A stretch of 61,300 bases of DNA, filler included, from Basidiobolus ranarum (lineage: Eukaryota): NCBI GenBank assembly GCA_040143965.1. It is 13 parts of 13 records of this genome, joined end to end, with 100 filler letters (N's around TTAATTAATTAA, not from the genome) between each part and the next. Parts side by side here need not be neighbours in the genome. Positions count along the whole stretch, not along the records: positions 23,682 to 28,309 come from JASJQH010008763.1; 12 more parts are not named here. The stretch is one strand, 5' to 3'. This document shows, piece after piece, positions 1 to 61,300 of the stretch (the first letter of the stretch is position 1; every line of letters begins with the position of its first letter). Both the position numbers and the translations under genes were made by a program. The notes under the pieces are model-generated. The model worked only from the letters and a program-made list of their open reading frames with translations, had not been told where the DNA came from and ran no database searches.

Positions 1-2095
1 CTACCAGAATCTGTAAAATCTAGGTTTCTTTGAGAACATGTACAATCATGCAATTGCATTGGCTCTGGATGGTTTCTTGCCAAAAAAATATACCATTGGA
101 AAAGCTTGCTGGCCAATAAATTTAATTGACTTAAATTTTCCTCCTTCTTAATGGTATAAGAGTCAAAATATTTTGATACTATCCATCATATCTGGACTTA
201 AATCACCAGTGCTTATAGATAGCTTCTTGGAGCCTTTGATTGCAGCATTTGAACAATTATCTAATGGAGTTCAGATGGGCAAATGTTTTATTGTAGCTAA
301 AATCACTGTATGTATTGGTGACACTTCTGCCATTGGCAAACTTGGAGGCTTTTTGAGCACAATGCGCTATCTTGCAGTAGATTTTGTCAAATCAATGGAG
401 TCTACTCAATCAGATATATACATTGCTACTATCCAAATAAAAACTAAACTCTATAATTTTACCATTGAGAGCCCAGTCAGATTTCAACATGATCACTGAT
501 ATCAATTCATCAAATGGTCAGTCTTACATCAAACTTGGTATTAGCCATAAGCCTAAGATTATATTGATAAAGGGGATCAGCTGGAGCCAGAGCTTCCCAT
601 TAGGCACTATGCACTTACTATTCAACTACATTCCAATTCTACTTACGCAGCTATATAGTGGAAAATTCAATATGAATGAGCCATTTTAGATAGGATCAAA
701 GTTTGAGTCAATTGGGAATATGCTGATGAATGTCAAGATATCATCATATTTTACCAGGACTCCCATTAATATCCACTCATCTAGGTATATATTTAAATTG
801 CCAATACTGGATTTATTGGACTTGTATGGATATATAAATGGAATCTTGAAATGATTTCTGCCTGATCAGTATTGGCAACATTGCAGTTGTTTGTCAATAT
901 TCTTAATATATTCTTACAGCAGCAACTCACATTTGCAGATCTCAGGCAGATACAGTGACTCTGCAAAGATTTTGTAATCGGATATGAAGAACTTTATTAC
1001 TGGATTAAAGAAGACAGGCTGAATCTATACTTGTATTTAATACATTCCCAGCTGCATCTTTCACAATACTTAGAGATTATAGGCCCTTGCTCTACATTCT
1101 GGGAGTTTCCAATGGAGCACACCTTTGGTGAAATGATGATCCATGTAAAGTTGTCAGTATTACTGTATGCTAATCTGATTAACAGTTTATCCACAAAATC
1201 AGTGATGGATGTAATGCCATGGGTCAAGGAGACTCCAGAGTATACTAACCTTACAACAAAGGGCTCTTTTCAACAGGCTCATGGGTTTTAGCATTGTTTG
1301 AACACAATAACAGCAACAAAGCCCAGTCCATGGACACAGAGTAGGTTCCTCTATAATTTGGACTAATTTGTTTGTGTAATAATCTCATGGTATTTCTAAC
1401 AAAGCTGCAAGACAGACTTCTTGGTGAGAAAGATAGAGATATGCAGTATTGTCATTTTAGCCATGGGGTAATCTATTCAAACCATGACACATCTACTTGT
1501 GGCAGGACATTTATTGACTGCAAGTGGGGGATATATTTGCTGAATTCTTGATGGAAATTTGCCAACATGCAAGAGCTTATTCTCATTGTGAATGGTAACA
1601 AGAGTCAGTTATTTGCCAAGTATCAGTATTATTCAAAATTTCAGATGTTTAGCAATTTTTCCACCATTAGTTTGCTGGTAAAGCATATTGATATTATTGA
1701 GTTATGTCTGATCAGTCATATATGTGCATATGTAGAGACTAAACAGAACAAGATTTTCTTGTTTTTTGATTCTCATTAGGGCTGGAATACAAAGCCCAAA
1801 ATATCTAAATAAAGGTATGCATATTAACTTGAATTCCTAGAGCAGAAACCAGTAATTTGCCATTCAAAAGTTATTTTTTTGCAAAAATTGCTGGAAATTA
1901 ATAATGAATGCCAAATATGAGGATTAATACTTTAATATATACAAATACCATCAAAATACCTTCAAGAAACCACTGTCACACCATCAAAATCTCTGGCAGA
2001 ATGCAAGCCACCAATATTGTGATGGTTCTCTAATGGCTTCACAATTTAGAAAGGTGGATCCAATCCCGATCACATTGATTTAATTTTTGTTAGGG
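1..2095 (+). mobile_element. Degenerate CACTA/En-Spm (CMC) DNA transposon, 3' part with right terminus
   Basis: Frameshifted Tnp2-like motifs: GLDGF..CWPINL..NFPP, IISGLKSP..IDSFLEPL, GDTSAIGKLGGF, FPLGTMHLLFN, HSQLHLSQYLEIIGP..FWEFPMEHTFG. Similarity to the second copy ends at TTTTTGTTAGGG (2084-2095). Confidence 0.8.
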
Positions 2096-2293
2096 CATAG
2101 TTGTATCAAATTGGCTAAAAATATCACATTTCATAATAGAAGCAAACATATAGATATTAAGCATCACCTCATTGGAGAGATTATAGAGAATCAGTTTATT
2201 CAACCAACTTATTGCTCTACTGAAATCATGATTGCTGATATATTAACCAAACCATTAGGTAGACAGAAATTTGAGAAACTTAGTCTCTGTTAG
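2096..2293 (+). pseudogene. Ty1/copia pol C-terminus (RNase H) remnant
   Basis: SCIKLAKNITFHNRSKHIDIKHH...YCSTEIMIADILTKPLGRQKFEKL is the copia RNase H end; followed by a purine-rich PPT-like tract (AGTTGATGGAGAG) and an LTR. Confidence 0.85.
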
Positions 2294-2327
2294 GATTGGT
2301 TTATGTGACTATTTAGTTGATGGAGAG

Positions 2328-2665
2328 CTTTAAAGTTAACATTACCTAAACACCAATATAGTTTAGTACTTAGTTATGTTATAATTCACTCAGATATTTT
2401 CCATTATTCTCAATTGGTATCTACTTGGAATATTTTTACCCACTTAGAAGTTTTTAGATATATGGATTTTTCAAACTTGTGCTAGAAGCCTCAAACTTTG
2501 CACACATGTTCCTGGGATCTCCCTTATCACACTTTACATGTTAGTTTGTTTACATCTTGACAGTACTACAAATGTTAACTTTCTACTCAAAAAATCAATA
2601 ATTGATGACCACCAATATCTCTGTTTCTCTAAACAACTTCCAACCAGCTCCCAAATACGTTAACA
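2328..2665 (+). mobile_element. 3' LTR of copia element (reference copy of the ~340-bp LTR family)
   Basis: Directly follows RNase H and PPT; ends ...CTCCCAAATACGTTAACA; similar to copies at 9625, 16059, 30262, 39646, 53180. Confidence 0.75.
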
Positions 2666-2669
2666 AGTA

Positions 2670-2870
2670 GCTTATGATTAGCTACATTCCCAGAAAACTA
2701 TGGATAAGCACATGTGCAAGTAACAAAACTCAAATGTTACACATTCACCACTTGAATGGTGTTCTGTCACCTTTGAAATTCCTAGTTTTTTTTGATATAC
2801 TCCACTGTATAGTTATATAGAGTTCTTCACACCCAAGATTTATCTCATATGCAACACAAGTCTGTAACAA
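2670..2870 (-). repeat. Fragment of unclassified repeat family X
   Basis: Matches 36345-36540 and 57365-57560 (gattagctaca..cccagaaaactatgg..cacatgtgc..tgtcacctttgaaa). Confidence 0.7.
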
Positions 2871-2932
2871 TCTCTCCATCAAAGCCAACCATTGGACTAA
2901 TGTTGCCAAATCAACATTCTTCCTGCTATCTG

Positions 2933-3436
2933 GAGCTTGTTCTCATTGTGAATGGTAACAAGAGTCAGCTATTTGCCAAGTGTCAGTGCTATTCCAAATT
3001 TTAGAAGTTTAGCGATTTCTGAACCATTAGTTTGCTAGTAAAGCATATTGATGTTGTTGAGTTATGACTAATCAGTCAAATATGTGCATATGTAGAGACT
3101 AAACACAATGAGATTCTTGTACTTTTTGATTCTCATTATGGCTGGAATACAAAGCCTAGAATAACTAAATAAAGGCATGCATATTAATTTGAATTCCTAC
3201 AGCAGTAAACTCAATAATTTGCCATTCAAAAATTATATTTTTTCAAAAGTTGTTGGATATTAAATAATGCATGCCAAATTTGAAGATCAACATTTCAACA
3301 TGCATGAAAGCCATCAACAAACCACCATCACACCATCCAAATCCCTGGCAGAATGCAAGCCACCAATATTGTGACCATTTTGCTATTTTGGAGGGTGGAA
3401 CTGATCCAGATCAAATCAATTTTATTTTTGTTAGGG
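2933..3436 (+). mobile_element. Second copy of the CACTA/CMC 3' end
   Basis: Direct repeat of ~1574-2095, ending at the same TTTTTGTTAGGG (3425-3436). Confidence 0.8.
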
Positions 3437-4112
3437 ATAGCAAGGGCCTATATTCTCTAAGTATTGTGAAGATACAGCAGAGTATGTATTGAACACTGGC
3501 ATAGATTCAGTCTATCTACTTTAAACCTGTAATAAAGTTTTACATAGCCAACTATAAAATCTTTGCACACTCACTGTATCTGTCTGAGATCTGCCAATAT
3601 GAGTTGATGCCTTATGAATATATTAACAATATTGACAAACAACTCCCAATGTTGCTAATAATTATCAGACAGAAATCTTTTCAAGATTACCTATGAATAT
3701 ATACAAATCCAATACTTCCAGTCTTTGCATTTGAATAAATGCCTAGATGAGTAGATATTGATTGGAGTCCTGCTAAAGTATGATGGTATCTTGACATTTT
3801 CAAGCATATTCCCAATTGATTCAAACTTTGATCCTATCTTGAATGGCTCATTCATATTGATTTTTCCACTATATAGCTGAGTAAGTAGTATCAGAATGTT
3901 GTTAAATAGTGAGTGCATAGTGCCTAATGGGAAGCTCTGTCTCCAGCTGATCCCCTTTAGCAATATAATCTTGGGCTTATGGCTAACACTGAGTTTGATG
4001 TTAGACTAACTATTTGGTGAATTGATATCAGGGATCATGTTGAATTCTAACCAGGCTCTTGAAAGTAAAATCATGGAGTTTAGTGTTGTATTTGGATAGC
4101 AGTAATACATAT
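3437..4112 (-). pseudogene. Inverted CACTA transposase fragment
   Basis: Reverse-complement match to ~415-1090; ORF 3691-3963 (KGISWRQSFPLGTMHSLFN) parallels 465-689. Confidence 0.8.
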
Positions 4113-4416
4113 GCTTGTGAGTATTTCTTCTAGCCTCTGGCTTTCATAGCACAAGAATTTGTGACAATAACAGCAGGGCTTCTTTAATTGTTTGTGTTGA
4201 GGCATGAGAAGGATATTGTAGAAAAAAGAACACCTCCCACATAAGGGTGATGTTTTAGGTATAGCCTATCAATATCATCAGCTGATTCTGAGACAGTGTC
4301 ACAGATGAGTCATCAGGGGATTTATAAAATATTTCTGGTAATAGATGGTAACTTTGGTTTATTATAAGCTGTTTCTAAGCATTTTCATATACCAAGTTTA
4401 CCATCTGAAAATTTCA

Positions 4417-4641
4417 ATGCCATTCAAAAAGCATTCAAGATATAAATCAAAATCAGCTTCCAAGCCAAAGCCTGCTGGCACAAAAGGAAAAAAACCAGCA
4501 AGAACAGAGGATCTAATTGATGAGTAGTCTAGCAATCCACTATCCACTTTGGAAGGCATTAACATGCCAGAAACTAACTCAAGTAATGATGAAGCATTAA
4601 TCAATTTACTAGAAGTGTTCCGATCCAGCAATAGTGCAAGT
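4417..4641 (+). repeat. Repeat family X, start of putative ORF (MPFKKHSRY...KKPARTEDLIDE)
   Basis: Matches 57760-57915 and 24420-24580. Confidence 0.65.
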
Positions 4642-9624: not shown

Positions 9625-9973
9625 TGTTCTAGTATTTTGGGAGGCTGTTGGAAGTGGTTTGAAGAACTAGAGAAATTGTTGGCTCTCACTTATTAATTTA
9701 TTGAGTATTCAGTTGACATTTATAGTTTTGTCAAGATGTAAGCAGACTAACATGTAGAATGTGTTAAAGAAGGTCCCAGGAGCATGTGTGCAAAGTTTGG
9801 GGCTTCTAGCACAAGTTTGAAAAATATATATATCTGAGAACTTCTAAGTTGGCAAAAATATTCCAAGTAAATTCCTTTTGAGAATAATGGGTGATATCTT
9901 GGTGGAATATAGGATAACTAAATACTAAGCTATTTATCACTATATAGGTGTTTAGACAATCCTAATTTTAATA
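9625..9973 (-). mobile_element. Solo copia LTR with 5-bp TSD
   Basis: Full-length family copy; AATTC at 9620-9624 and 9974-9978. Confidence 0.85.
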
Positions 9974-11607: not shown

Positions 11608-11717
11608 CACCGTCTTTAAGAAACTAGAATGCATTATCTCATCTCGACGCGTTCTATTCCTTAAATACTTTTAGTACAGTTTTTACCTGACAGAAAGTCA
11701 ACTCTTAACCCTAAACC

Positions 11718-12683
11718 ATGCGTGTTCTCTTAGTATTGCTGGCTGCTACGATCACTTGGCTAAACATCGAAGGAATCAACGCTGATAAGTTTCCCTATTG
11801 CAAAAATGAATACTCAATAACTAGTGCTCACTGTCAGTTTCTTCGAAAATACCCTAAAAACAATCGAAACTATGAGAAAAAAATCAAACAGCTCCCTATG
11901 GTGGATTTGGAACCTCAGCCCAAGCTTATGGCAAAAATGATAACCAATGTATTTGAATACGGGACCACAACATTTGGCTATGCTACATGTGCTAAGCTTG
12001 GTGATGGCCGTGGATTTACCTGTGGTCTTGTTGGCTTCACTACTGGTACAAATGATGCTTTGGCTGTTGTTGTAGCATATGATAAAGTCAAACCCAACTC
12101 TGAGCTGGCGAAGTTTATTCCGGAATTGACTCGTTTAAGCAAACTAGATTGGGATACTAGTGGGCGTGATGATACTAGTAAGCTTGGTGGGTTTACGGAG
12201 GCTTGGACAAAAGTTAGCTGTACGGACCCAGATTTCCGTGCAGTTCAGGATAAAATTGCCGATCACCTCTATCTTATTCCTGGTTTGCAACTAGGTGAGG
12301 CTGCGGGTATTAGTACAAATCTAGGTAAAGCCATAATGTACGACACTGCTGTCCAGCACGGATGGGAGGAAGACGACGGTATCAGTCTACTTACTATTCT
12401 CAACTTGGTTGGACCTCCAAATGGCAGAACTGAAGCCCAATACCTTGAAGATTTTATAAAGGTTCGCTGGATACTTCTTTGCTGTACCAAGGATAATGTG
12501 TGGCCAGCCTCAGCTGATAGAACAAGCGATTTGATGGAGGTTTTAAAAACCGGGAATTTTGATCTGAATCCACCGATTGACCTCAAGGCATATACTGCCA
12601 ATATCACTGGGAGCGAAGACCCTAGCAAAAACATCAAAGGGTGTAGTGGAAGCAAAAAAGATAAAAGTGGAGGTGGTCATTAA
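11718..12683 (+). CDS. Secreted chitosanase, glycoside hydrolase family 46 (intronless)
   Basis: Signal peptide; TNVFEYGTTTFGYATCAKLGDGRGFTCGLVGFTTGTNDA matches the GH46 signature (catalytic Glu and DGRG Asp); also DPDFRAVQD and YDTAVQHG. Confidence 0.9.
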   Translation: MRVLLVLLAATITWLNIEGINADKFPYCKNEYSITSAHCQFLRKYPKNNRNYEKKIKQLPMVDLEPQPKLMAKMITNVFEYGTTTFGYATCAKLGDGRGFTCGLVGFTTGTNDALAVVVAYDKVKPNSELAKFIPELTRLSKLDWDTSGRDDTSKLGGFTEAWTKVSCTDPDFRAVQDKIADHLYLIPGLQLGEAAGISTNLGKAIMYDTAVQHGWEEDDGISLLTILNLVGPPNGRTEAQYLEDFIKVRWILLCCTKDNVWPASADRTSDLMEVLKTGNFDLNPPIDLKAYTANITGSEDPSKNIKGCSGSKKDKSGGGH

Positions 12684-14216: not shown

Positions 14217-16599
14217 GGGGGTCATAACCAATAGAGACCTAGATGGATATCTATTCCTAAAATATACTGAAGTTGAAACCAATTCAGCCCAGAACTGTTT
14301 TGGTAAATATTGATCATGAAGCATTGATCTTATCTTTTTTATTACTGATCTGTTTGCATATTCTGCTAATCCATTATGTCACTGCAGTCTGCTGTTTTAT
14401 CCCTTGTGTTGAGTAGAAATTAGAGAAGAGTTTTGACGTATATTCCCCTCCATTAACAGTACAGATAATCTTTAGCATTGGACCTGATGCAGTCTCCACC
14501 ATTGGTTTAAGTTTCTTGAAGGTAACAAAGGCTTCATCCTTACTGGCCAGAAAGTACACCCAAGTATACTTTGTCTTATAAACATTCAAGGTCTTAAAAC
14601 CGCTTTTCCTACAAAGGATTTTGTCTGCATTGGGTCACACAGATCTGAGTGTATCAGGCCCAGTTTTTGATCAATTTGCCCATTCCCAAGCCTACAAATG
14701 GCTGTCTGTGTTGCCCACCATATAGGCAGCCTTGACATGGCTCCAGATTGGCAGGAATTACAAAATTTTGTCCCAAAACCATCTTGTTCTTGATTAAATT
14801 CCTCATATTTTAAGCTCTTAAATGACCCAATCTCCTATGCCATACTTTCCAGTCTATATCTTTGGCTGTGGCAGTGTAAGCTTGTTCATATAGCCTACAA
14901 GTTAATAAGCTTAGCTCCAGAAGCTATGTTGTTTCCTTAATGCTCCATGATTGTACAGCCATTCTGATCAAAATTAAAGCTTTATCTCTCAGATATAGCT
15001 TTACTCTCTGATAACAATTGTTTTGCTATCCCAGGCACATATAGCACATTTTCAGTGTCAAATAAATGTCCCCAGAGATGCCCCCAAGATCCACTTAAAG
15101 TTCTCAAACTCTCAGAGCTTCCAGTGGCAGGTCATCTCCCATGTAAACATTCTTTTTTATGTCAGTTTAGAATGTCTTCAACCAGTTTTTTGATTGGAAA
15201 AATGTTGAGAGGCTCCAGAATCAATATATCTTGTTCTACATTCTTGTTCAGAGGTCACTGAAAGTGCAGAAAAGAATAAAACTTCCTCTTTGGTTGTAAT
15301 CTGATTTGATTGTCCAACTTCTCATTTTTGTTGTAATTTCTTGATTTGCATTCATTTAACTGGGGTTCTGATTTGTTACATCCATGGCATAAACTTGGTT
15401 TCCTTCTTTATTGAGAAAACATAGGGTGTTTGGAGGAACTTTAGAAAAGTGGAGTTGTTAATAGCTTTTGTGAGAAAATTATTTATTGTCCAGAAATAAA
15501 GCTTTTTTACATGTTGGTGGAAATTTGGAAAACTAACACTGGGGTTGTGTTCAGAACATCTGTGGGAGTAAAATGAACTATCTTTGGGTAATTTGGACAA
15601 GTTTGAAATTTCCAATATGGAATTGCTAATTCTCACATTATTCACATATATGTATATTATATGTTCCGATTTTCAGTCAAGTGATATTTGACTAAGTAAT
15701 GTTAACTAACTTATATGTGATATATGAAATAGTTAGATGTATAAGGATAGAGATAACAAATATGATAAAGGCAATAAACTTCAACTGACAGAACAGTGTG
15801 CTAGCAGGCAACCCATGTCATCATGTACCCAGCTTGGTTTCTTTGTAGCCAATTATTTATCTCAATTGGCTAGTACTGCAACTTTTGACCATATAGACTG
15901 CAGTTCCCCACTGCTCTCAGGTACATAGTTCCATAATTAATCTTATCTCTATTGATTATCTATTAGGAACTGTAAAAAGGTGTGGTAATTCATGTAGTTA
16001 TATATATAAACTCTGAGTCACTTTGTATCAAGATGAATATCCTCTAAATCCTTATGACTGTTGAAACTACCATAGCCAAGCACCTATGTAGTCATATATA
16101 GCTAGTATTTAGTTATTCTATATTAAATTAAGATGTCACCCATTTTTCTTACATGGAATTTATCTGGAAAATTTTTACCAATTTATAAGTTCTTAGATAT
16201 ATAGATTTTTCAAAGTAAATTTCAATTGAGAAGAGTGAGTGCTATCTTAGTGAAATATAGGATAACTAAGTACTAAGATATACATGACTATATAGATGTT
16301 TAGACAATGCTAATTTCAACATTTGGGACCTTCCTTAACACATTCTATGCATTTGTTTATTTACCTCTTGATAAAACTATAAATGTCAACTTTCAACTCA
16401 ATATATCAATAAGTAAAACTAATAATTCTTCTAGTTCGAAAAATCACTTCCAACAAACTCCCAAAATACTTTAATAATGACATCTTCGAAATGGATCTAA
16501 AGTTACAAATCGTAATCACTGTATTCTCCTTAGCAGTAGTGAACAAGTGAAAGTGGTAGTAGAGATCTGGTTTGCTGCAAACTTGGGGCTCATAACTTG
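14217..16599 (-). mobile_element. Degenerate Ty1/copia element (PBS, gag, protease, integrase)
   Basis: Integrase remnants FLASKDEAF..IICTVNGGEYTS and RSMLHDQYLPKQFWAE..FRNRYP; on the minus strand the LTR end CA is followed by AGTTATGAGCCCC (16585-16597). Confidence 0.75.
16059..16476 (+). mobile_element. Solo copia LTR with TSD and internal inverted segment
   Basis: TGTTGAAA...ATACTTTAATA flanked by ATGAC (16054-16058 and 16477-16481); ~16215-16321 is an inverted copy of the LTR 5' part. Confidence 0.8.
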
Positions 16600-23681: not shown

Positions 23682-24400
23682 AGCTATATTTGCCAATTAG
23701 TGGTGGACAAAGTGCTACAAAACCAATAAATATCTGGTTGCTAAGATTAGGTGAACTCTTCACTCCTCATTAATTAAAGCTGCTTTGTTTACTGTAAGTG
23801 TAATTGGTGGACTAATGTTTCCAGTTTCAAAGAGTCCATAACAAAACCATTGTCTTCTTGATCTTGTGATATACTGCCATCATTGCCAGAATAACCAAGG
23901 TTTACATCCACCAACATGCCCTGAGAGTTTTCTGGACTTACTGGCTTGATGGAACATGTACTTCTAAGCACATCAGTCTGGTCATATAAGTGTGGTAACT
24001 GCACAGCATCATCACTTTCAACATTGTTAGATTAGGATAGCCAAAGTCAACATCTTGCTGAATGTTCTCAAAGTTCTCAAGACTTATTGGTTTTACCAAT
24101 CATGCACTTCCACTCACATCATATGAATCATATAATGGTGGTAACTCCACAGTATCATACATTTTGACAATGTAGCCCAAACTTTGTGGTAAGCATAGCC
24201 AATGAATTCAGTGGCAAAGCTAAAGTAGTCCCTGTGTGCTTAGGACTAGAGGACTTTCAGAATATTTCCAATACTAGATGGCAATTTAGACTTTTGATAA
24301 TTTATATCTAAGCAATTTCACTCTCCCAAGTGTTTAATATGAATATTTTAATATTGTAGCCAAATTTCCAGAATCTTAATCAAAGTTGGTTTCCAAACAC
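23682..24400 (-). pseudogene. Possible Ty3/gypsy gag-protease remnant
   Basis: RRQWFCYGLFETGNIS resembles a decayed zinc knuckle; CpG-depleted region. Confidence 0.3.
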
Positions 24401-24419
24401 TAGCCTGCTGGAAAGAGAG

Positions 24420-25510
24420 TAAAAAAATCAGCAAAAACAATAAACTTAGTTGTTGAGTGGTCTAGCAATCTATTATTGACTTTTGGAGGCATTGAAATGC
24501 CAGGAACTTACTCAAGTTATGGTAAAGTGTTACTCTACTCATCAGATGTATTCTTTTCTGCTGTTGGCGCAAGTGAAGAGGCTACAATTCCCCCATCTTG
24601 TAGAAAGTCAAAAATTTAGCATGTTTCAATGAACTCACCATCAACACTTTCACCTTCCAAATGCCTACTTTGGCATCTATTGAACATCCCACTGTAGGCA
24701 ATTTGGCTAGAATTAATACAACAAGGGAATCTCAGGCAGAACACAGTAATGATATTTATGAAATTGTAAGTAAATGCTACATAGTTACTATATAGGCCAT
24801 GACAAGCCATAACACAGGTATATTGGGCAAATGTCATTGAAAACCAGCAAACCAAAAGACTCTGAATGTTAGAGCTGCTTACACTTGCTCAGCTGACAGA
24901 TGGTTTGACATTTTGGAAACTATGCAGAATCTTGCCCATAATGACCTTGATTTTTGCTTATCTTAGAAAAACCAAAGACCGGGCATTGCTCATTAGGTCA
25001 TTGACTTATTTCATGTGGAATATCTTGGGTTTTTGCTAGCAAATAGCAATAGGGATTGTATAGGCATAGTCATGAAACATCTCAAAAAGGTATATGATTG
25101 TTGACTTGGAAGAGAAAGAAAAGCAGCTAAAGCTGTACTTAAGGAGATGGAAGTAATTTAACCAAAGGGAAAAGCAAAAAAGCTGGTGGTTGTTGACCAC
25201 ACTGTCCCACTTACCAATTTTTTGCACCATTAGAAAGACCTGTATTTCCTGAGTTGGAAATACATAAAAATATACTGTTGAATGCATGATTTTGTGGTAC
25301 AACCAAAAATACCAGCTTGAAGAGGTCAAAGGTAGGAGGTATATCCTACACCTGACACTTCTCAACAAGCTAAAACACCAGCAAACAAAGCACATGGCTC
25401 TCCAATCTCAACTGGTCTTTTCAAAGTGTTCAAATTGCCCCAAACTTAAAGGCAAGCAAAAAGACACCCAAACACTGCAAAGCACTCCAAGTAGTGTCAT
25501 ACTAAATGGA
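24420..25510 (+). repeat. Repeat family X copy (internally deleted)
   Basis: Collinear with 57765-59085 (gaaaaccagcaaaccaaaagactct; caaacttaaaggcaagcaaaa). Confidence 0.75.
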
Positions 25511-26020
25511 TAAAAAATTACTGTTAGGGTAATAGCAAAGCCTGTTATCCAGTAATTCCACCCAACTGGAATCTTTCACTAATTGACTATCTCATTAGTA
25601 AAAACATTACAGTGCTCTTGCTCAAATTGGACCTAAAGCTTCCTGTCAATACCAGCAGCTTTTACTGTCACAATAAGGAATTGGACAAGGACTGAATACA
25701 GTAACTAGAGGTTAGAAAGCAGGATAGTACTTGGGTGTAGACCACAAGGCAAGACCAGACAAGACTGGACAGGGAAGATACTCTGGCTGGAATCTTTATA
25801 GATAAATGGCATCAAATAGGAGGTGGTCTCATTAAGGAAAACAGGGAGCTTATATAAATATTGCCAGGTGAAATATAATATACTGAATAGAAGTACTGTG
25901 GCAATTTCAAGTCTCAGGGTGTTGAGGACTGCAAGGACCAATATAATGGGGGTCAATGTAAGGATGATCAGATGCCTTTCATGAAAGGTCTTGGCAGATT
26001 TATACTATTCTTGGTATGTA

Positions 26021-26303
26021 TGTTGAAAGTCTGGTGACTTGTGGTACAAGCGGTAATTCCCAGAGAGGAAAATATGAAGTATGGTGACTGCATCTGAAGA
26101 CAAAGTCTAAGGCCAATCAGTTGCTTGTATAGCAGAAATGCCAAAGTTCCATACATTTAACAGACTAGGTTAAGGTTCCTTAGCAATATAGGCATAGCAT
26201 ACAAGGACTGGTAGCTCAGTGGTTAGAGCACCTTGCTAGAGTGAAGGAGGTCCCAGGTTCAAATCCTGGCTGGACCAATATTTCTCCCTAAATAATTTCA
26301 ATA
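26021..26303 (+). mobile_element. LTR-like unit carrying a tRNA-derived sequence
   Basis: Starts TGTTGAAA, ends TTTCAATA; tRNA-like segment at 26205-26277; its 3' end is shared with the copy at 37651-37751. Confidence 0.6.
26205..26277 (+). ncRNA. tRNA-derived sequence / pseudo-tRNA with intact Pol III A and B boxes
   Basis: 73 nt; A box TAGCTCAGTGG, T arm CCAGG-TTCAAAT-CCTGG. Mismatches A3:A70 and G31:G39; AGA at the anticodon position without the long Ser variable arm. Confidence 0.8.
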
Positions 26304-26483
26304 TTATTATGATTGCTTAGGTTTAATAGAATATTCCAAAGATATGACATCCATTTAAGATAACCTGGATGAACTAGCACAAAATTGCCAAGAAAGGATG
26401 GCACAACAGACATGATGTCAGTATCTAATAATGACAGAATTCCATTTGCAATGAAGGAGCTTGCTAAGATCAGAATCATGACT

Positions 26484-27180
26484 GTTTCCTTCCTTCAGCA
26501 ATGTCTTCCAGACATCATTGGGCCAGGTTTTTTCTGGGTAGCTTTCATGAAACTCCTGGAAAAGTTCTTGAGAGTTGGAAAGAGTTTTTGCTGATTTCCA
26601 TGATTGATCATTTTCTGAGATTCCCTTCCAGTCTACTAAATATTGAAATTTACATCAATAAATTCTTGAATATAGAATTTTGATAACTTCATATTCAAGG
26701 TGCTCCTTTACCTGGATTGTTGGGTGAGGGTCAATGGATTGGCCATGGAGGTGTTTCCAGAATGAGGCTCTAGGGGAGACACATGGAATACATTGTGGAC
26801 TTTGCAATAGTCTGTGAGTTTAAGGTGGTGTAGTTGTTTTGGGGTGTAAGCAGCAACTAAAACTGCAATATCCTAAGGGTTGTGTGAGGTGTTCAAAGGG
26901 TGCAGTAACCATGGTTGAATAACTCTGGGATGTACTGTAATATGGTTCTGTCTCTTGCCTCTTGGGTCTTTGTGAAAGGGAATCAAGCCTCTGGAAATGT
27001 CTGAGGACTAATAAACCACAATGCAATGTCTGGCTTTCTGTTGAATAATATGCTGGTGCCTGACAAAAGAATATAATGGCTTCAATGTCCTTTGAGAATG
27101 ATCTGATAAAAATGGTATATCCAATTAAAAACAACTGTAAACTCAGCCAGCAGGGTCTTGAATGAGGATGCACTAGTAGT
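26484..27180 (-). pseudogene. Chromovirus remnant: gag-like piece next to integrase C-terminus and chromodomain
   Basis: Own translation HNVFHVSPLEP...EYEVIKILYSR..QYLVDWKGISENDQSW..QEFHESYPEK (about 26520-26800). Confidence 0.75.
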
Positions 27181-28409
27181 GATTTATCAAAGGATGTGAA
27201 AAGTTTCTTTCCTATGCAGACAAAGCTAGGGAAAAAAATATAAAGTATCAGAAATATAACACCTACCTGGCAGTACTTCCTTTGAGCCAGTCAAGTCCTT
27301 TCTAGTCACACAGTAGCCTGTAACTGCCTCTAGTAGTCTCTGTTGAGCTTCCTCTTCAGAGGTCTTGTAAGTGGTGATAAAAATAAGGGGTGGTCACAAG
27401 TAGTAATTGTTAGTTGAAAACCGGGATGATTTTTATTTGAAAAATATGGCTCCTATTTATACTTTTCTGAAGGTAGATATGATAACTAATGAGAATTTCC
27501 AGAAAGTCTCAGAGAATTCTATTGGTCAGGGTCTGGGGTTATGATATCATCATAAATCATAAGATTAGTAATCCATGAAATGTTCTGGCAAAACCAACTT
27601 TTGCTTGGTCAAAACTCAATCAATGATCAAATATTCCAAGAATCTTGTGGAATGTTCTGGAAGAATGTAGAGTTTTCCAGAAAATAATAGGGCTAATGTG
27701 GGTTAATACCAATAAATGTGAAATAATAGAGGATAATACTAATGGTGTGATATGATTGTGAAGAAAATTTGGGTAAGTCACATATTGATAATAAAATAGT
27801 AATTGTGCAATGGTAATGATATGAGCTTGGAGTAGAAATAAGTCAACCTGCCAGTGGGCATGATGATCTTAAAAGGCCATAGTGAATTATGATTAAGCTT
27901 ATCACAAGTTGTAGAGGTCTTTATATTTTTTTGGATCAGCTTCACATCACTCTTGGCTTGACATCTGGGTTTGGCTTTCTATTCTTAACAGCAAAGTTCT
28001 TGTATTGTGATTTAGCATGTTCCAACTGGGATATTAATTGTTAATGATGTCCTCAAGGAAAGTGACATGATCTGACACAGCAGGGCAAGGTAGATTGGAA
28101 GGTGGGTAAACCGTACAACAAGACAAAATTAATAATTTGCAAAGAAAGGAGTTTGTTTTATTCAGATATCATTAGAGCTGTTGTAAGTAAATTCAGCAAC
28201 AGGTAAGAGTTATATCAAATAATTTTGATTATATTTATGGTGCATCTCAAATATTGCTCAAAAACTATTAGGGATTGGAAGTGGCTATAGGTGGCCATAG
28301 GGCTAATGTNNNNNNNNNNNNNNNNNNNNNNNNNNNNNNNNNNNNNNNNNNNNTTAATTAATTAANNNNNNNNNNNNNNNNNNNNNNNNNNNNNNNNNNN
28401 NNNNNNNNN

Positions 28410-30261: not shown

Positions 30262-30612
30262 TGTTCAAGTATTTTGGAAGCCTGTTGGAAGTAGTAGTTT
30301 GGAGGAATAGAGAAATTGGTGGTGCCACCTATCAATTTATTGAATTGAAAGTTGACATCAATAGTTTTGTCCAGATGTAAGCAAACTAAAATATAGAATG
30401 TGTTCTGGAAAATCCCAGGAACATTTGTACAAAGTTTTGGGCTTTTGACACAGGTTTGAAGAATTTATATATCTGAGAACCTCTAAGTGGGTGTCAATAT
30501 TCCAAGTATATTCCTCATGAAAATAATGGGTAATATTGTAGTTCAATATAGGATAACTAGACATTAAGCTATATATGACTATATAGGTGTTTAGACAATG
30601 CCAATTTCAACA
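30262..30612 (-). mobile_element. Full-length copia-family LTR
   Basis: TGTTCAAG...AATTTCAACA; no TSD seen; further LTR fragments at ~30675-30723 and ~30797-30870. Confidence 0.8.
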
Positions 30613-30971: not shown

Positions 30972-31453
30972 TGTTAAGGTATTTTGGAAGCGTGTTGGAA
31001 GTGGTTTGGAGAAATAGAGAAATTGGTGGTTATCACTTATTGATTTATTCAGTTGAAATTTGATATTTACAGTTTTATAAGCAAAATAACGTGTAAAATG
31101 TGCCAAGAAAGATCTAAGAGACATGTGTGCAAAGTCTGGGGCTTTCAGTACGGTTTGAAAAATCTATATATTTGAGAACTCCTAAGTATATTCCAATCAA
31201 GAATAGTTGCTGATGCCTTAATGGAATATACTTAGAAGTTCTCAGAAGATAAGATTTTTCAAACTTGTGTTAGAAGCCCCGTAATTTCCACACATGTTCC
31301 TGGGACCTTTCTTAGCACATTCTACTGGTTTGCTTGTGTACCTTGGACAAAACTATATATGTCAACTTTCTACTCAATAAATCAATAAGTGAAATCCACC
31401 AATTCTTCTAATTCACCAAACCGCCTCCAACATACTGCCAAGATACTTTAACA
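30972..31453. repeat. Fold-back of two inverted LTR 3' halves
   Basis: Arms ~30972-31195 and ~31222-31453 are reverse complements around a ~26-nt spacer; outer ends TGTTAA...TTAACA. Confidence 0.8.
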
Positions 31454-32188: not shown

Positions 32189-33032
32189 TTACCAGGCAAG
32201 TCTGGAAATTAATCCAAGCGGGAATTTGCGGCAATAGTATTTACGTGTCTCATCAGCGGCTAAGATAAACAATGCTCCACCAATAGGGATAAACCAAAAT
32301 TGGACTGGAACATGTCGGGTATTGAAGATATTGTTAAATGCTGGTAAGTAAATAGCAAGCAAGGCTAAACCAACAGAGCAACATTGAGCTCCATATAACC
32401 AGAGATTACGGGAAGGTTCGGCCCATGGGGGATGCTGGAGGACTGAGAGACGACGGGTACGAGTGGCCAGTAAATTACCGAAGGCTTGAAGCATAACCAG
32501 TGTGACAAAAGTAACACACTGAGCGGTATAATGTAAATCATCAAGTTCTTGTTGTGTTTTACCCAAATGTTCGGGGGACCAGTTGTTGAAAGCGAGCAAG
32601 ATATCCTTAACCTTGATGTTACCATATTCTTGAAGATAATAGAAGAACATGCAGTGAGAGATTAAGGTTTCCATCAGACCAGTGAATAAATAGGCGTGAC
32701 GGAGTAACTTGAAATTCACCAAACGATCTTGGTCAGGACGACGAGGTGGACGTTTCAACAAATCAGATTCGGGGGTTTCAAACATGATTGCAATCGATGG
32801 GAACATATCAGTCAACACACAGATATAGATCATTAAGAAGGCAGAAAGAGGAAGTGGGATACCGAGTAAAAAGTTGGACAGAATTGGAATCAACTCGGAC
32901 CATGAACCAGCGGGAATAAGGTAAAGGATAACTTTCTTCAAGTTGTCGTACACCAATCTTCCGTTCTCAATAGCGACAATGATAGAAGAGAAGTTGTTAT
33001 CGAGAAGTACCATGTGAGCTGCCTCCATGGCT
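32189..33032 (-). CDS. P-type ATPase, type IIC (Na+/K+-ATPase alpha-like), C-terminal part
   Basis: MVLLDNNFSSIIVAIENGRLVYDNLKK, PLPLS, PESDLLKRPPRRPDQDRLVN, TRTRRLSVLQ, DETRK; M5-M10 helices. Confidence 0.88.
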
Positions 33033-33132: not shown

Positions 33133-34320
33133 TGGCTTTTTTTGACTTTATAGAACAATGGCAAGCTATTACTGGAAATGGCCTTATGCTGTGCAACTAA
33201 AGATCCTCAGATGATCCACACTTGGTTTAGCTTCAAATAGGGCTTCAAATAGAGTAGAATTTGTAGCAATCTTGGTGGGCATCTGTTTTCAATAAAGATG
33301 GCAATGAAGACAGATTCAGCCCAATATTGGTAATTTTACTTTTGATCATGTAACATTGATATTGCCATATCCACAGTGGTCCTATTAGCATGTAATGCAG
33401 CTCCATATTGCTGTGGAGTATAAGATACTGTAGTTTGTAGCTCAATAGATGTGTAGAGCAAAAACTTGCAAAGTCTTTAGAGCAGTATTATCCACCATGA
33501 CAACTCAGTAGTACCCTTGTTTTTTGTGCTGCTTCTTTCTCTACCATGGCTTAGTGGTGCTTGAATGTAGTTAGGGCTTGAGATTAGGATTTAGGAATGA
33601 ATACCCAAGCAAATCTTGTTTTGTCATCAATGAGCATCATGAAGTACCTTTTAGCATCTATTGAGATGTTTTTCATGTGCTCCTATGAATCAGAATGAGT
33701 CAGGGCAAAATTCTGAGTGGCTTTGACCGCTTGTATCACCAGTTTCACCCAAGTTTGCATGCTAAGAATGCAAGTTGTTGATATATAGCTTGTACAAGTT
33801 TTGATATTTGATCCCGTTAGCTAATTTGGTATTATTCTGATCTGTGCTAGTGCATGCAGCATTGCTGAACATAAAATTTAGTCCTTGAGCTGTTGCTTGG
33901 CTTGCTGAGAGCAGATTATTAACTGCACATGGTAGATAGAGTATATCATCCAATTTTGCAGATGGTGTAGCTGAACTTCAGTCTAAATTTAGCACAACTG
34001 TGCCCTTGCCAACTGCATCTAGTGCTTAGTTATCACCTAAGTAGATTTTCCTTGTTTGCCTGGGTTATAAGCTTGAGAATCAATCTTTCTTGTTTGACAT
34101 ATGCTGGGATGCTCCTGAATCAATGTACCATGTTTCTGAGTCTTCTGTAGTGGGTACTGATAGGGCAAACACAAATAGATGCACCCTGTCAGTGCTTGCT
34201 TGACTTGCTTGCTTCAATTTTGGCTTTTTGGCAAAAATGCTTTTTCTGCAATTTTAATTAAATGTCCTGGTTTCTTGCAATACCTGCAGATGATTGATTT
34301 CTATTAGGGGCACCATAACT
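33133..34320 (-). mobile_element. Degenerate Ty1/copia (zinc knuckle, protease, integrase)
   Basis: Minus-strand CRYCKKPGH, WYIDSGASQHM, NNLLSASQAT, YFMMLIDDKTRFAWVF. Confidence 0.85.
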
Positions 34321-34326
34321 GGAGCA

Positions 34327-36340
34327 TGTTGGACACTTTACAGCTCCAAAAATTGCCAATCATACTGGAAATGCCAAGATCTATGTTTATGGTTGACTGG
34401 AACATCCTTGATCAGCTGATTCCATTAGTCAGGATTATTGCTTACCATGGCCTATCAATATGATTATCCTATCATCAAGATCTATTTACAATTGGTAATT
34501 ACTTAGATTAGATACTTTATTGGTGCCATCCCCAGGTATGGATAGATCAAATGTCTTTGCAAGTTTAGCCTCATTATAATGATTTCAGCTATGGTCTTTT
34601 TATTTAATATTAGTTAGTAATCTAATGATGGGTTATCTGCTTATCACATCAAAGAATTTTAGTATAAAAGGGCATCCCCCACCCTTTGAAATTAACAGCA
34701 CTATCTATAGTAACATTGTGTAACTACACTATCACACTTACATCTTGACTCATCCATCCTCTGCCATTAGGTTATGACCCCATTACTACTTACATGAGAT
34801 GAATATGAATATAAGAGACTTTGGCTGCTCTAATAGAGAAGACTTTCTGATCTGATGCCCCAGGGTGAATATGCTGCTCTCAAAGAGAAACCTTTGGAGA
34901 ATTGTTACTAGTGTCAGAACTCAACTCAGTGCCTCAAAGCTTAAGGATCCAGCTGACTTTAAGAGAAGGGAGGTGAAATCCCTTGCTGCTCTAATGCTGT
35001 ATTTTAATGATGTTTGACTAGTTCTTGTACTCCATGTAGGTCACCTAGTGAGGTCTGGGAAATCTTGAAGACCCTTTACAAAATTTTAGGAACTACATAT
35101 TGTATGTATATATAAAGATAACCATATGACATCCTCAAAAAGGGAGATTCTGATATATCAACTGAGCATTTCAACACACTCAAAGCCATGGTGCAGAAGC
35201 TGGCTGCTGTTGGAGTAACTGTTTCAATAATTGACTTTATTGGTATATGATTTGGTACTCTACTATCAAGTTACTCTATTATTATCACAACTATAGAGTA
35301 TATTGATAGGAAATACATACTAAGACCTATGTTGCTTCTAAGTAATTCCATGAAGAGAGAAACTAGTGAGAGGTGGGGCTAAATATAAGAAGCAGAGTGC
35401 CTTTTATACAAACAAACAATATGTGGGTACAAAGAGCTCTTACAAGAAGACCAAATTCTATGGCATTGTTGAAACAAGCCTGGGCACTATACCAAGAACA
35501 GCTACACAAAGAAAGCTGATATGCAATAAAAGACAGTGCAAGCAATCTATTTTAGCACTAATAAGGACTTTGCATTTGTTTTGACTACGGCCATAACTAT
35601 TGACTTGCATTGTGAATATATTGGCTAATATGCATTGAAAAATATTACTCACCATAGCAACTGGCTTATTAGCTTTAGGTTTGTACCTGTCAAGAAAGTT
35701 TACATAGGTGGTATTTGTACTCTTGATGCTGTGGGAGTTGCAAAGGTTGACTTGGCTTTAAAATTGATAGAAAACTGTTGCATTGCACCTTGACTGATGT
35801 ACTTCATGTGCCTGGAATTTCAAAGAACCTGTTTTCTGCTAGTAAAGCTACATCTGAAGAATGACAAGTGAAATTCCCTGATTGGAAGTGCCTTATTTTG
35901 TAAAAGGACAAGTAAAATACACCTATTACTGAAGTAACAAGGAGTCAAGCTCTTAACTGCCTGAATGCTACAGTTATCTACTCAGAATATGTGAACCTAG
36001 CTGACAACAAGTTGAACAAGCTTTCATGGTGCACTCCAAGAGAAGGAGATGGTTATAGGACTTGAACTAAGAAATTCAACAGCTAAAGAATTTTGTATAG
36101 GTTATTGGAGCCAAGCAGTTTCTAGGACTTGTTGAATTTCATCTGTATCTATCTATCACTATCACCTCTCTAGGTGATTCAAATACCTCATTCAATTTGT
36201 CACTGACTTTTCAACAATAATGTTGGTGTCCTTCTTAAAGAACATAAGTCAGAGTCTAGAGGTATTCTGGGAGTTTCATGATGCAGTAAGGAATTAAACA
36301 TGCAAGAAAGTTAAGGCTATAAGAACAGATAATGCAAAAT
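34327..36340 (+). mobile_element. Second degenerate copia (5' LTR ~34327-34766, PBS, gag to integrase) abutting the first
   Basis: TGTTGG start, TATAAAAG, PBS GGTTATGACCCC (34770-34781), decayed knuckle KPGHYTKN, integrase KVKAIRTDNA. Confidence 0.7.
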
Positions 36341-37645
36341 TGGTGCACATATTAGCTACAGTCTCAGAGAACTATGTAACAACACATGTCCAACAAACAT
36401 AACTCAAATTTTACACATTCAGCACTTGAACAATAATTTGTCACCTTTGAAATCCCAAGTTTCTTTGATATATTCTCCCAAATGTTTTTATAGAGATCTT
36501 CATACCCAAGGTAGAACTCACATTCAACACAAGTTTATATCAATGTCTGCATCAAAGCCCACCAATGTACTAACATTGCTGAATCCACATTCCTACAGTT
36601 ATCTGGTGGATACCCTGCAATATTGTGCCACTCTGTATTAAGTTCTTCCCAGATATCTTCACAGTCAACACCAGACTGAATGTCAGATTGAATGTTCTTG
36701 TTCTCAAGCCACATTCTGCATACTTGCACCATGCTTTTCCCTTCATAGATCTGAAAATCTTCCTCAAGCACTTTTACTATTATTATATATCTTTGTAGTG
36801 TGACACTACTAAGGGTGCATTGCAGTGTTTTTGTGGCTTTTTGCTTGCCTTTAAGTTTGGGGCTAACTTTAACACTTTGAAAAGTACCAGTTGATGTTGG
36901 AGGGCCATGAGATATATTTGCCAGTGTTTTGGCTTGTTGAGAGATGCCAGGTGTTGGATAAGCTTCCAAATTTAGCACTCTTCCAACTGGTGTACCTAGT
37001 TCCATGGTTATATTATGCTTTTTGTTGGTATATCTGACTCTGGAAATACAGATCTGTAATGGTGTGAAGAGTTTAATAAGTTGGACAGTAGAGCCCAAAA
37101 TCACGGCTCCTTGGCTTTTCCCTTGGGTTTACTAACTTCCTGCTCCTTGAGTACTTCTTTAGCTGCTTTTCTTTCTTTTCCAAGTCAATAATTGCATGCA
37201 TTTTTAGATGTTTTGTGACTAGACGTATACTAGCCCAATTGCCATTTGCTTGCAAAAACCTAGGATAAGCCACAAGAAATACGTCAAGAACCTTCCGAGT
37301 AATTTCCAGTTTTTGGTTTCTCTAGGATTGGTTCAAATCAATGTGATTTTGGGCAAGATTCCACACAGTTTCCAAGATGTTAAACCACTCATCATCGGAG
37401 CAAGTAATGGCAACTCTGATTTTCAAAGTCTTCTGGTGTTCCAGTTTTCCTATGAGATTTCTACTTTCATGTGCCCTAGCAATTTGGGATTGTAATGTAG
37501 GCTTAATGGTCCAACACATATTCTGCTCTGCTACATGGTCATGGTGAGATACATATGTATGGTGTGGGATTGATTGCAATCCCATTGGAGAATGTACAAA
37601 GGGAGCAGCATGTTGCTGTAGCTCAAGTATAGCATTCTGAAGGTT
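36340..37645 (-). repeat. Repeat family X copy
   Basis: Reverse complement of ~58225-59430, extending further; truncates the copia integrase on its left. Confidence 0.8.
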
Positions 37646-37650
37646 AAAAG

Positions 37651-37751
37651 TGTTGAAATTATTTAGCGAGAATTATTGGTCTGGCCAGGATCTGAACCTG
37701 GGACCTCCTTCACTCTAGCAAGATGCGCTAACCACTGAGCTACCAGTCCTT
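37651..37751 (-). mobile_element. Second copy of the tRNA-bearing LTR-like unit (truncated by contig end)
   Basis: tRNA-like segment followed (minus strand) by ATAATTCTCGCTAAATAATTTCAACA, matching 26278-26303; abuts repeat X. Confidence 0.65.
37677..37749 (-). ncRNA. tRNA-derived sequence / pseudo-tRNA, copy 2
   Basis: GGACTGGTAGCTCAGTGGTTAGCGCATCTTGCTAGAGTGAAGGAGGTCCCAGGTTCAGATCCTGGCCAGACCA; near-identical to 26205-26277. Confidence 0.8.
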
Positions 37752-47282: not shown

Positions 47283-50284
<3,002 letters not shown>

Positions 50285-61060: not shown

Positions 61061-61300
61061 GCTGATAAAAGTGTTTAGGGGATTTGGAAGTGTTTTGGAC
61101 AAGATTTGGATTTGTGAATCAGACACTTAAGTCTTATTGAATTGAATATGTCCTATTTATAGTTTACTATGAGATCCGACTATTGGACGTGCTTAGATCA
61201 TAACAAATATGCCTGTTAAGCATGGGTGAAAATTTGAGGTGATTTGGAGAAGTTTTGAGAAAATAGTGAAAATTGGTAAAAGTGATCTAATTGATATTTC

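What the first reader, a model, noticed from the sequence alone, without database searches (positions are those of the whole stretch)
26021..26303. LTR-like mobile unit carrying a tRNA-derived Pol III promoter (two copies)
Seen: a 73-nt tRNA-like sequence occurs at 26205-26277 (+) and 37677-37749 (-) on different contigs. Both have the same 26-nt tail ending in TTTCAA(C/T)A, and copy 1 begins 184 nt upstream with TGTTGAAA, giving a 283-bp unit with the same inverted termini as the copia LTRs here. Copy 1 sits inside a gypsy LTR; copy 2 cuts repeat X a few nt from its terminus. A and B boxes are kept while the acceptor and anticodon stems share mismatches (A3:A70, G31:G39), and AGA lacks the Ser variable arm. 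Known: Cassandra TRIMs carry 5S rRNA in their LTRs, and tRNA-bearing TRIM LTRs have been described as Helenus (from recall, should be verified). Inference: a Pol III-driven non-autonomous LTR element, possibly mobilised by the local copia integrase and possibly a new family in this lineage. No TSD is visible on copy 1.
Basis: partly seen in the sequence, partly recalled or inferred. Interest (0 to 1): 0.75.

Follow-up and report, generated by a model that had tools for sequence, protein, structure and literature searches.

The report
Helenus solo LTR with Copia hybrids
This is a leftover end-repeat of a tiny gene-less jumping element that carries a tRNA look-alike, a kind described in 2024 as Helenus; here it sits in an early-diverging fungus, where hybrid copies point to the three larger Copia elements it probably rode on.

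Summary
26021-26303 is real: a solo LTR of a Helenus-type TRIM (Kojima 2024). The genome holds at least 262 copies of its tRNA-like core. 32 of 45 solo LTRs have 5-bp TSDs with at most one mismatch. Two-LTR copies enclose a 51-bp internal part with a polypurine tract and a 14-nt PBS complementary to the host's own iMet anticodon arm. The tRNA is not functional-looking (A3:A70 and G31:G39 unpaired in 50 of 50 copies). The host is a non-Dikarya fungus, outside Kojima's fungal list, and no published family matched. This scan has reported the same family in this genome many times before. What is added here is a tally: 10 of 24 internal parts follow the LTR of one of three unrelated Copia families (A, B, C), joined at the shared PBS, and 8 Helenus LTRs lead into Copia gag. 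Among 200 listed Copia-A/B gag starts there was no A-B cross. My best reading is plus-strand switching in shared particles, which would name the helpers. It is unproven: no hybrid showed a spanning TSD (0 of 3 searches), and survival bias inflates the share (about 4% per insertion). Pol III activity was not tested.

The parts
26021..26303 (+). Solo LTR of the Helenus-type TRIM (copy 1), TGTTGAAA...TTTCAATA
   Evidence: 41 near-full-length hits at 93-100% among the 40 candidates scored of 404; ends and flanks
26021..26204 (+). Part of the LTR upstream of the tRNA-like unit (U3 by inference)
   Evidence: Shared by the genome copies; mean pairwise difference 0.068 over 50 LTRs. U3 status is inferred from a Pol III start at 26205
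26205..26277 (+). tRNA-like unit, anticodon AGA, no long variable arm; putative internal Pol III promoter
   Evidence: ARAGORN, RF00005 54.2 bits; 19 of 21 stem pairs kept in 46-50 of 50 copies, 3:70 and 31:39 in 0 of 50
26212..26223 (+). Box A (TAGCTCAGTGGT)
   Evidence: Commonest form in 28 of 50 LTRs; fits the TRGCY/YGG motifs in Kojima 2024
26257..26265 (+). Box B (GTTCAAATC)
   Evidence: Commonest form in 31 of 50 LTRs
26278..26303 (+). 26-nt tail ending the LTR; longest T run is 3
   Evidence: 45 of 50 LTRs have no run of 4 T on this strand
26304..26308 (+). Five extra bases at the insertion site (length of a decayed TSD; sequence does not match the left flank 26016-26020)
   Evidence: Comparison with uninterrupted host copies; 3 mismatches
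25666..26483 (-). Host: 3' LTR of a chromodomain-bearing gypsy element, interrupted by copy 1
   Evidence: 804 candidates in the genome; continuity across the insertion; Chromo PF00385 at about 26544-26645, minus strand; ends and purine tract
37651..37751 (-). Copy 2: last ~100 nt of another LTR of the family, cut by the contig end
36450..37644 (-). Repeat X, interrupted internally by copy 2 (class not determined)
   Evidence: Self-BLAST; other copies continue past the insertion point; no Pfam hit on the frames tested
15409..15785 (-). LTR of Copia family A (candidate helper; 378 bp, no tRNA), on another contig
   Evidence: 92.9% to the A reference
9625..9971 (-). LTR of Copia family B (candidate helper; 348 bp); further copies at 2330-2665, 30262-30612, 53180-53519
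61063..61300 (-). Part of an LTR of Copia family C (candidate helper; 351 bp)
   Evidence: 91.2% to the C reference

Best explanation
26021-26303 is a solo LTR left by LTR-LTR recombination of a roughly 615-bp Helenus-type TRIM (LTR, 51-bp internal part, LTR) that inserted into a gypsy LTR. SHOWN: structure, 5-bp TSDs in the family, PBS matched to the host iMet anticodon arm (nt 26-39), PPT, non-functional tRNA shape, and a PBS shared with three Copia families. INFERRED: Pol III starts at the tRNA-like unit of the 5' LTR and reads through tail, PBS, internal part and 3' LTR (about 400 nt or more). This RNA is packaged in Copia particles, primed by a 3'-truncated iMet half-molecule, and copied and integrated by Copia enzymes. 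INFERRED, less firmly (about 0.55-0.6): hybrids joined at the PBS arise when the plus-strand strong-stop DNA of one passenger anneals through the 14-nt PBS to the minus strand of the other. That would make families A, B and C all helpers.
For: Family size at least 262. TSD with at most 1 mismatch in 32 of 45 solo LTRs, 21 perfect at 5 bp and none at 4 or 6 bp; shuffled pairs 66 of 2000. Paired LTRs around a 51-bp internal part. PBS 14/14 complementary to the host iMet gene in L145; the same first 12 bases occur 48 times in Kojima's supplement. A real Ser-AGA gene (82 nt, long arm) exists apart. Hybrids: 10 of 24 internal parts follow an A (3), B (4) or C (3) LTR. 8 Helenus LTRs lead through the PBS into Copia gag (A 5, B 2, C-like 1). 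Both three-part hybrids read B-internal-H-gagB. In 2 hybrids the A LTR is a 3' LTR after the RNase H end and PPT, where no PBS normally follows. Among the first 100 of 158 gagA starts: 98 A-like, 2 Helenus, 0 B; among the first 100 of 484 gagB starts, no A end.
Against: No expression data were available, so promoter activity is untested. Copy 1 lacks a sequence TSD, and 13 of 45 solo LTRs have 2 or more mismatches. Of the two-LTR elements with both ends, C12063 has a near TSD (TTATC/ATATC) and C1835 has none. No hybrid has both outer ends with a TSD, and three searches for the missing partner end found none. Native elements collapse to solo LTRs while hybrids cannot, so 10 of 24 overstates the birth rate (about 4%). 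The lack of A-B crosses is weak statistically if all 262 LTRs count as partners (p = 0.04 to 0.12). The predicted RNA folds no better than shuffles (z 0.03 and -0.60).
Confidence: 0.92

Rival explanations
1. (Concerns the hybrids only.) They arose after insertion, by DNA recombination at the 14-16 bp shared around the PBS (for example a one-LTR Helenus circle recombining into a chromosomal Copia), and say nothing about shared particles.
For: No spanning TSD found (0 of 3 searches). 13 of 45 solo LTRs lack a good TSD, so ectopic recombination is common here. B-internal-H-gagB is also what a circle insertion would give. Sabot and Schulman count 20 recombinant against 2 template-switch complexes in Triticeae.
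Against: B PBS ends (484) outnumber Helenus PBS ends (about 24), yet B-led gagA is 0 of 100 and Helenus-led 2 of 100 (p = 0.002 on those weights). Two hybrids start from a 3' LTR, which has no PBS behind it.
Confidence: 0.3
2. (Concerns the hybrids only.) They are assembly or library chimeras in a fragmented assembly (13,754 contigs).
For: Many loci end within or near the elements. No reads could be checked.
Against: The joins recur at one 14-16 bp site, in both directions, on 16 different contigs, with diverged copies (80-95% to references). That overlap is shorter than usual assembly k-mers (my knowledge). A-B joins are absent although the same overlap is available.
Confidence: 0.1
3. The tRNA-bearing LTR is the native LTR of an autonomous Copia element, and the TRIM is its deletion derivative.
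For: 8 places where this LTR is followed by PBS and Copia gag.
Against: 36 of 40 best gagA starts and 36 of 40 best gagB starts carry their own tRNA-less LTR. None of 13 purine-tract/LTR-start matches is a Copia PPT: 11 are the TRIM's own, 2 look like chance flanks. The gag partners belong to three different families.
Confidence: 0.03
4. It is a tRNA-derived SINE or a scattered tRNA pseudogene with a tail.
For: tRNA head with boxes A and B, short tail, most copies single.
Against: A fixed 184-nt upstream part, TG...CA/TA ends, TSDs of exactly 5 bp, paired copies with PBS and PPT, no A-rich or repeated tail.
Confidence: 0.01
5. It is a functional tRNA gene (Ser-AGA or a recoded isotype) amplified by a mobile carrier.
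For: ARAGORN calls most copies tRNA-Ser. 19 of 21 stem pairs are kept although the sequence is far from all 62 host tRNA sequences held.
Against: Unpaired 3:70 and 31:39 in 50 of 50 copies; no Ser variable arm; a normal Ser-AGA gene is present. Diversity in the unit (0.056) is about that of the flanking U3 (0.068).
Confidence: 0.02

Closest known systems
Fungal Helenus (TRIMp3), Kojima 2024, Biology 13:119, PMC10886601 (main text parts 1-4 and 6 of 6 read; supplement parts 1, 4, 10, 11 of 11 read and three word searches)
   Same: TRIM under 1 kb; tRNA-like unit with boxes A/B near the LTR 3' end; anticodon and isotype disagree; PBS on the iMet anticodon arm with the same first 12 bases; PPT; 5-bp TSD; many solo LTRs; PBS shared with Copia; predicted Ser-AGA inflation as for Helenus-9_PSt, -2_UVF and -6_CroRib.
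   Different: Host outside the listed fungi (Pucciniales and three Agaricomycetes). No listed family has the LTR/internal lengths 281-283/51, and five family-specific words gave 0 hits in the supplement (line breaks can hide words). No intron-like stretch in the tRNA unit and no T4 run in the tail, unlike several rust families (by eye). Hybrids with Copia LTRs are not mentioned in the parts read.
Cassandra and Ajax (5S rRNA-bearing TRIMs; PMC10886601; PMC7215508 passages)
   Same: Pol III promoter from a small RNA gene inside the LTR; tandem LTR-internal-LTR arrays.
   Different: The promoter here is tRNA-derived, not 5S (only RF00005 hits in the window). The arrays here also mix in foreign Copia LTRs.
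Template-switch complexes and chimeric TRIMs (Sabot and Schulman 2007, PMC1950507, whole text; sugar-beet TRIM-08 with LTRs from TRIM-01/-05, PMC13570524, passages; second strand transfer through PBS homology, PMC6894440, passages; Du et al. 2010 'LTR swapping', title in a reference list only)
   Same: Two elements share one LTR; LTRs are exchanged between families; co-packaging is the proposed cause.
   Different: In Sabot and Schulman the switch is at the R region between related elements, with matching outer LTRs and TSDs. Here the LTRs are unrelated, the join is at the PBS, a Pol III TRIM pairs with three Copia families, and no spanning TSD could be shown.

Membership tests
Helenus (TRIMp3) | Two LTRs around a short non-coding internal part, total under 1000 bp | tested here: met
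   C1835, C4047, C6387, C10919, C12063 and others; internal part 51 bp, total about 615 bp. Copy 1 itself is a solo LTR.
Helenus (TRIMp3) | tRNA-derived sequence with boxes A and B inside the LTR | tested here: met
Helenus (TRIMp3) | PBS directly after the 5' LTR; in fungi mostly the anticodon arm of iMet | tested here: met
   14 of 14 bases complementary to nt 26-39 of the genome's own iMet gene
Helenus (TRIMp3) | Polypurine tract before the 3' LTR | tested here: met
   GAGGGGGAA or a near variant in the internal parts printed
Helenus (TRIMp3) | 5-bp TSD (fungal families) | tested here: met
   21 of 45 solo LTRs perfect at 5 bp, 0 at 4 or 6 bp; 32 of 45 within one mismatch. Not met in sequence by copy 1.
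Helenus (TRIMp3) | tRNA-like unit unlikely to be a working tRNA | tested here: met
   Fixed unpaired 3:70 and 31:39, no Ser arm, separate true Ser-AGA gene. tRNAscan-SE isotype scoring was not available.
Helenus (TRIMp3) | PBS shared with autonomous Copia families of the same genome | tested here: met
   Families A (158 starts), B (484) and C. Pfam confirms Copia gag for A (also protease and pre-integrase domains) and weakly for B (E 0.002); C rests on a recalled gag motif, with no Pfam hit.
Helenus (TRIMp3) | Transcription by RNA polymerase III | not testable with these tools
   No reads could be consulted; not validated for published Helenus either
A published Helenus family | High identity to a consensus in Kojima's Data S1 | tested here: inconclusive
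   0 hits for five family words and for three of six further words; no matching length pair in Table S1; no alignment was run, and parts 2, 3 and 5-9 were seen only through searches
SINE2 (tRNA SINE) | Element starts at the tRNA, has an A-rich or repeated tail and variable-length TSDs | tested here: not met
   184 fixed nt upstream, TG...CA ends, 5-bp TSD only
Autonomous Copia with a tRNA-bearing LTR | This LTR at both ends of a coding Copia | tested here: not met
   0 of 13 matches put a Copia PPT before this LTR; native LTRs of A and B are different
Cassandra / Ajax | 5S rRNA-derived sequence in the LTR | tested here: not met
   The Rfam scan of the window gives tRNA only

The most novel reading that the evidence does not exclude
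The PBS-joined hybrids are a fossil record of shared particles. One Pol III-driven TRIM was carried by at least three Copia families whose LTRs are unrelated to it and to each other, with only the half-iMet primer site in common, and plus-strand strong-stop DNA jumped between passenger and helper there. If so, helpers of TRIMp3 elements (unknown for Cassandra, one indirect case for Helenus according to Kojima 2024) can be read directly from genome sequence, and helper choice needs no LTR or internal homology beyond the PBS. Helenus would also extend to a fungal lineage far outside Dikarya.
Probability: 0.55. Interest if true: 0.62.

Novelty: new member of a known kind. Interest (0 to 1): 0.4.

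Why it matters
As a Helenus family it is a range extension to an early-diverging fungus and a warning for annotation: a few hundred false tRNA-Ser(AGA) calls in one genome. The hybrids matter more. Kojima 2024 states that it is not known how a TRIM's dependence on its autonomous partner is kept, and that no partner is indicated for Cassandra. Hybrid junctions at the PBS offer a sequence-only way to name partners and make the question testable with a long-read assembly.

Tried and rejected
(1) Autonomous Copia with this LTR: rejected. (2) TSDs across hybrids: three partner-end searches, for C3473, C3167 and C9218, found only native host repeats, chance matches or nothing. None of the nine contigs with a foreign-led internal part holds both outer ends intact. 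(3) The pair table was one column off register and was discarded; one search replaces it (the T-run, diversity and LTR-pair figures do not depend on it). (4) Parent tRNA: no close match among 62 host tRNA sequences held; best were Cys-GCA and Thr-AGT at low scores, so the isotype of origin is open. (5) RNA folding of the 99-nt head plus tail and of the 406-nt predicted transcript gave no signal over shuffles. (6) Absence of T4 runs on the sense strand (45 of 50) fits read-through, but it descends from one ancestor and has, by my rough estimate, about a one-in-four chance, so it is not counted as evidence. (7) Rows dropped from the 24 internal parts: C12688, C11931, C12665 (5-21 nt at contig ends) and C201, C7455 (chance matches). 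C2117, seen only in the table, is probably a further native element and would make 10 of 25. One of the 45 'solo' rows (L005) is probably a 3' LTR cut by its contig start. (8) Fisher test 10/24 against 3/76 gave p = 2e-5, but survival bias and uneven handling of two unclassified rows make it generous; I do not rely on it. (9) Expression and read support could not be examined. (10) Paper searches for later Helenus/TRIMp3 work or hybrids of this type found only the works cited; Du et al. 2010 could not be read, so that precedent may be closer than I can judge.

Full report
Setting. The window is 13 unrelated contigs of about 4.6 kb joined by N spacers. It comes from a 65-Mb assembly in 13,754 contigs. 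A GH46 frame at 11715-12680 has its best named relatives in Basidiobolus (48-50% identity), then Umbelopsis and Calcarisporiella. An SMC3 frame at 47678-49666 is nearest to Glomeromycotina, Mortierellaceae and Umbelopsis (54-57%; full-length SMC3 proteins were partly outside the searched lengths). The host is therefore an early-diverging fungus outside Dikarya, possibly near Basidiobolus; I did not fix it more closely.

The observation. Copy 1 starts with TGTTGAAA at 26021 and ends TTTCAATA at 26303. It interrupts the 3' LTR of a chromodomain gypsy element on the minus strand. Against the host copies aligned it adds exactly five bases, the length of a TSD, though the two flanks differ at 3 of 5 positions. 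Copy 2 is cut by its contig end two bases before the tRNA, and it lies inside repeat X rather than at its end.

What it is. The 283-bp unit is a family. There were 41 near-full-length hits at 93-100% from the 40 candidates scored of 404, and 262 matches to a 20-nt core with 0 in the reversed control. I examined the 30 best loci and 50 of the first 100 listed core matches. Of 45 LTRs with both ends and no PBS or PPT beside them, 21 have a perfect 5-bp TSD and 11 have one mismatch; none is perfect at 4 or 6 bp; shuffled flank pairs reach one mismatch or fewer in 66 of 2000 draws. Thirteen have two or more mismatches, copy 1 among them. Several loci hold two LTRs around a 51-bp internal part that begins GGTTATGAGCCCCG and ends GAGGGGGAA. 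The first 14 bases are the exact complement of nt 26-39 of the genome's own initiator tRNA gene. LTR pairs are 269/279 and 252/282 identical, and mean pairwise difference over 50 LTRs is 0.065, so there is no sign of current activity.

The tRNA-like unit. In 50 LTRs, 19 of 21 stem pairs are kept in 46-50 copies, while 3:70 and 31:39 are paired in none. The anticodon is AGA in 47 of 50, but there is no long variable arm, and a normal 82-nt Ser-AGA gene exists elsewhere. Boxes A and B are intact in the commonest form. It is best read as an internal Pol III promoter, which is inference: no expression data could be consulted.

Comparison with what is known. Kojima 2024 (PMC10886601) defines Helenus as TRIMs with a tRNA-like sequence in the LTR, a PBS, a PPT and, in fungi, 5-bp TSDs, mostly iMet anticodon-arm priming and PBS similarity to Copia. 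Every testable feature is met. The first 12 bases of the PBS occur 48 times in that paper's supplement. No listed family has these lengths and family-specific words were not found, so this is probably an unlisted family; I could not run an alignment. The fungal hosts listed are Pucciniales and three Agaricomycetes. Searches for later work showed no report of Helenus in early-diverging fungi within the library. This scan, however, has already reported the family in this genome many times (79 notes fit the look-up, 8 shown).

What the tally adds. Not every internal part follows a Helenus LTR. Pooling, 14 of 24 internal parts follow the family's own LTR and 10 follow a tRNA-less LTR: family A (378 bp) 3 times, B (348 bp) 4 times, C (351 bp) 3 times. 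These LTRs are unrelated to each other and to the Helenus LTR. Each join falls at the LTR end/PBS boundary. The reverse also occurs: 8 Helenus LTRs run through the PBS into Copia gag (A 5, B 2, C-like 1). Pfam confirms Copia gag, protease and pre-integrase domains for A and a weak gag hit for B; C is called from a recalled gag motif only. The native LTR of gagA is A (36 of the 40 best loci; 3 Helenus, one being the query; 1 other), and that of gagB is B (36 of 40; 2 too short, 1 other, 1 not recovered). No Copia PPT precedes the Helenus LTR (0 of 13), which rules out a Copia that natively carries it. Judged by eye on the 11 bases before the PBS, the first 100 of 158 gagA starts show 98 A-like ends, 2 Helenus and no B; the first 100 of 484 gagB starts show no A end (two odd rows proved to be B). 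In C3167 and C3748 the A LTR follows an RNase H end (motif recognised from my knowledge) and PPT, so it is a 3' LTR with a Helenus internal part behind it. C10616 and C12958 both read B LTR, internal part, Helenus LTR, gagB.

How it most likely works. The second strand transfer of LTR elements uses PBS homology (PMC6894440, passages). If Helenus RNA is copied inside a Copia particle, plus-strand strong-stop DNA of either partner can anneal to the other's minus strand, giving exactly these joins, including the shared-LTR concatemers that start from a 3' LTR. It also predicts what is seen: Helenus mixes with each Copia family while the Copia families, packaging their own RNA, rarely mix with each other. 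I put this at about 0.55-0.6. Against it: no hybrid could be shown to carry a TSD around its outer ends, and three targeted searches found no partner end; the assembly is fragmented, but that is still a miss. Native elements collapse to solo LTRs and hybrids cannot, so the rate per insertion is nearer 4% than 42%. The shortage of A-B crosses has p = 0.04-0.12 if all Helenus LTRs count as possible partners and 0.002 if only PBS-bearing ones do. Post-insertion recombination (0.3) and assembly or library chimeras (0.1) remain. Precedents exist for shared-LTR complexes by template switching (PMC1950507), for TRIMs with LTRs from other TRIMs (PMC13570524) and, by title only, for LTR swapping between autonomous and non-autonomous partners (Du et al. 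2010, reference list). My searches found no paper on PBS-joined hybrids of a Pol III TRIM with several Copia families; most subscription journals are not in the library.

Verdict. It is a new member of a known kind, in a host lineage not listed for it. The hybrids are the part worth following, since they could name the helpers that Kojima says are largely unknown. Interest 0.4.

Noticed in passing
window, contigs 1-4641, 23682-28309, 33133-37751, 56698-61300: CpG is almost absent (observed/expected 0.03-0.09) in these four repeat-filled contigs, against 0.48-0.75 in the other nine: the mark of long-term CpG methylation of repeats.
   Followed up: no
L125-L151 (e.g. G000:C1890, C9147, C8468, C2156): True tRNA genes lie mostly in dense mixed clusters, up to 8 genes in about 3 kb, with recurring orders such as Pro-Ala-Cys-Lys and Val-Ser-Thr-Val-His-Gln on different contigs.
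   Followed up: no
G000:C6957, C6885, C7711, C1188, C9726: A second set of RF00005 hits with nearly one score (57 bits) occurs many times on a few contigs, in both orientations; an array of one tRNA or another tRNA-bearing repeat.
   Followed up: no
window 26242-26264 (T arm and the bases before it): By eye, 23 bases here are identical to Helenus-2_MLP, -4_CroRib and -16_CroRib, and GACTGG at the 5' end is shared with that group; a 14-base word occurs 7 times in the supplement, once in a mussel family. Shared ancestry with rust Helenus or box-B constraint.
   Followed up: partly
L120 / G000:C6956 near 32600-32679: A Helenus LTR and internal part are followed, right after the PPT, by an unrelated sequence starting TGTTAG up to the contig end: an insertion or a switch on the PPT side.
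   Followed up: no
L073 / G000:C12063: A solo B LTR is inserted antisense into the PBS of a two-LTR Helenus, with GTTAT duplicated; another B LTR sits just before the tRNA in C3730.
   Followed up: partly
L118 (C2165) and L207 (C6647): Two Helenus LTRs share the same right flank at 92% identity, so the region was duplicated after insertion or is allelic.
   Followed up: no
L104 / G000:C5938: Tandem units of Copia-A LTR plus about 300 bp of gag with no PPT.
   Followed up: no
window 30972-31453: Two partial B LTRs lie back to back as an inverted pair.
   Followed up: no
window 11715-12680: An open frame of 322 codons for a GH46 chitosanase whose relatives are in Basidiobolus, Mucoromycota and bacteria; that the family is mainly bacterial is recalled.
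   Followed up: partly
L019 (C3116), L070 (C9412): Helenus LTRs followed by a PBS stub and then unrelated repeat sequence; possibly aberrant cDNA ends or later deletions.
   Followed up: partly
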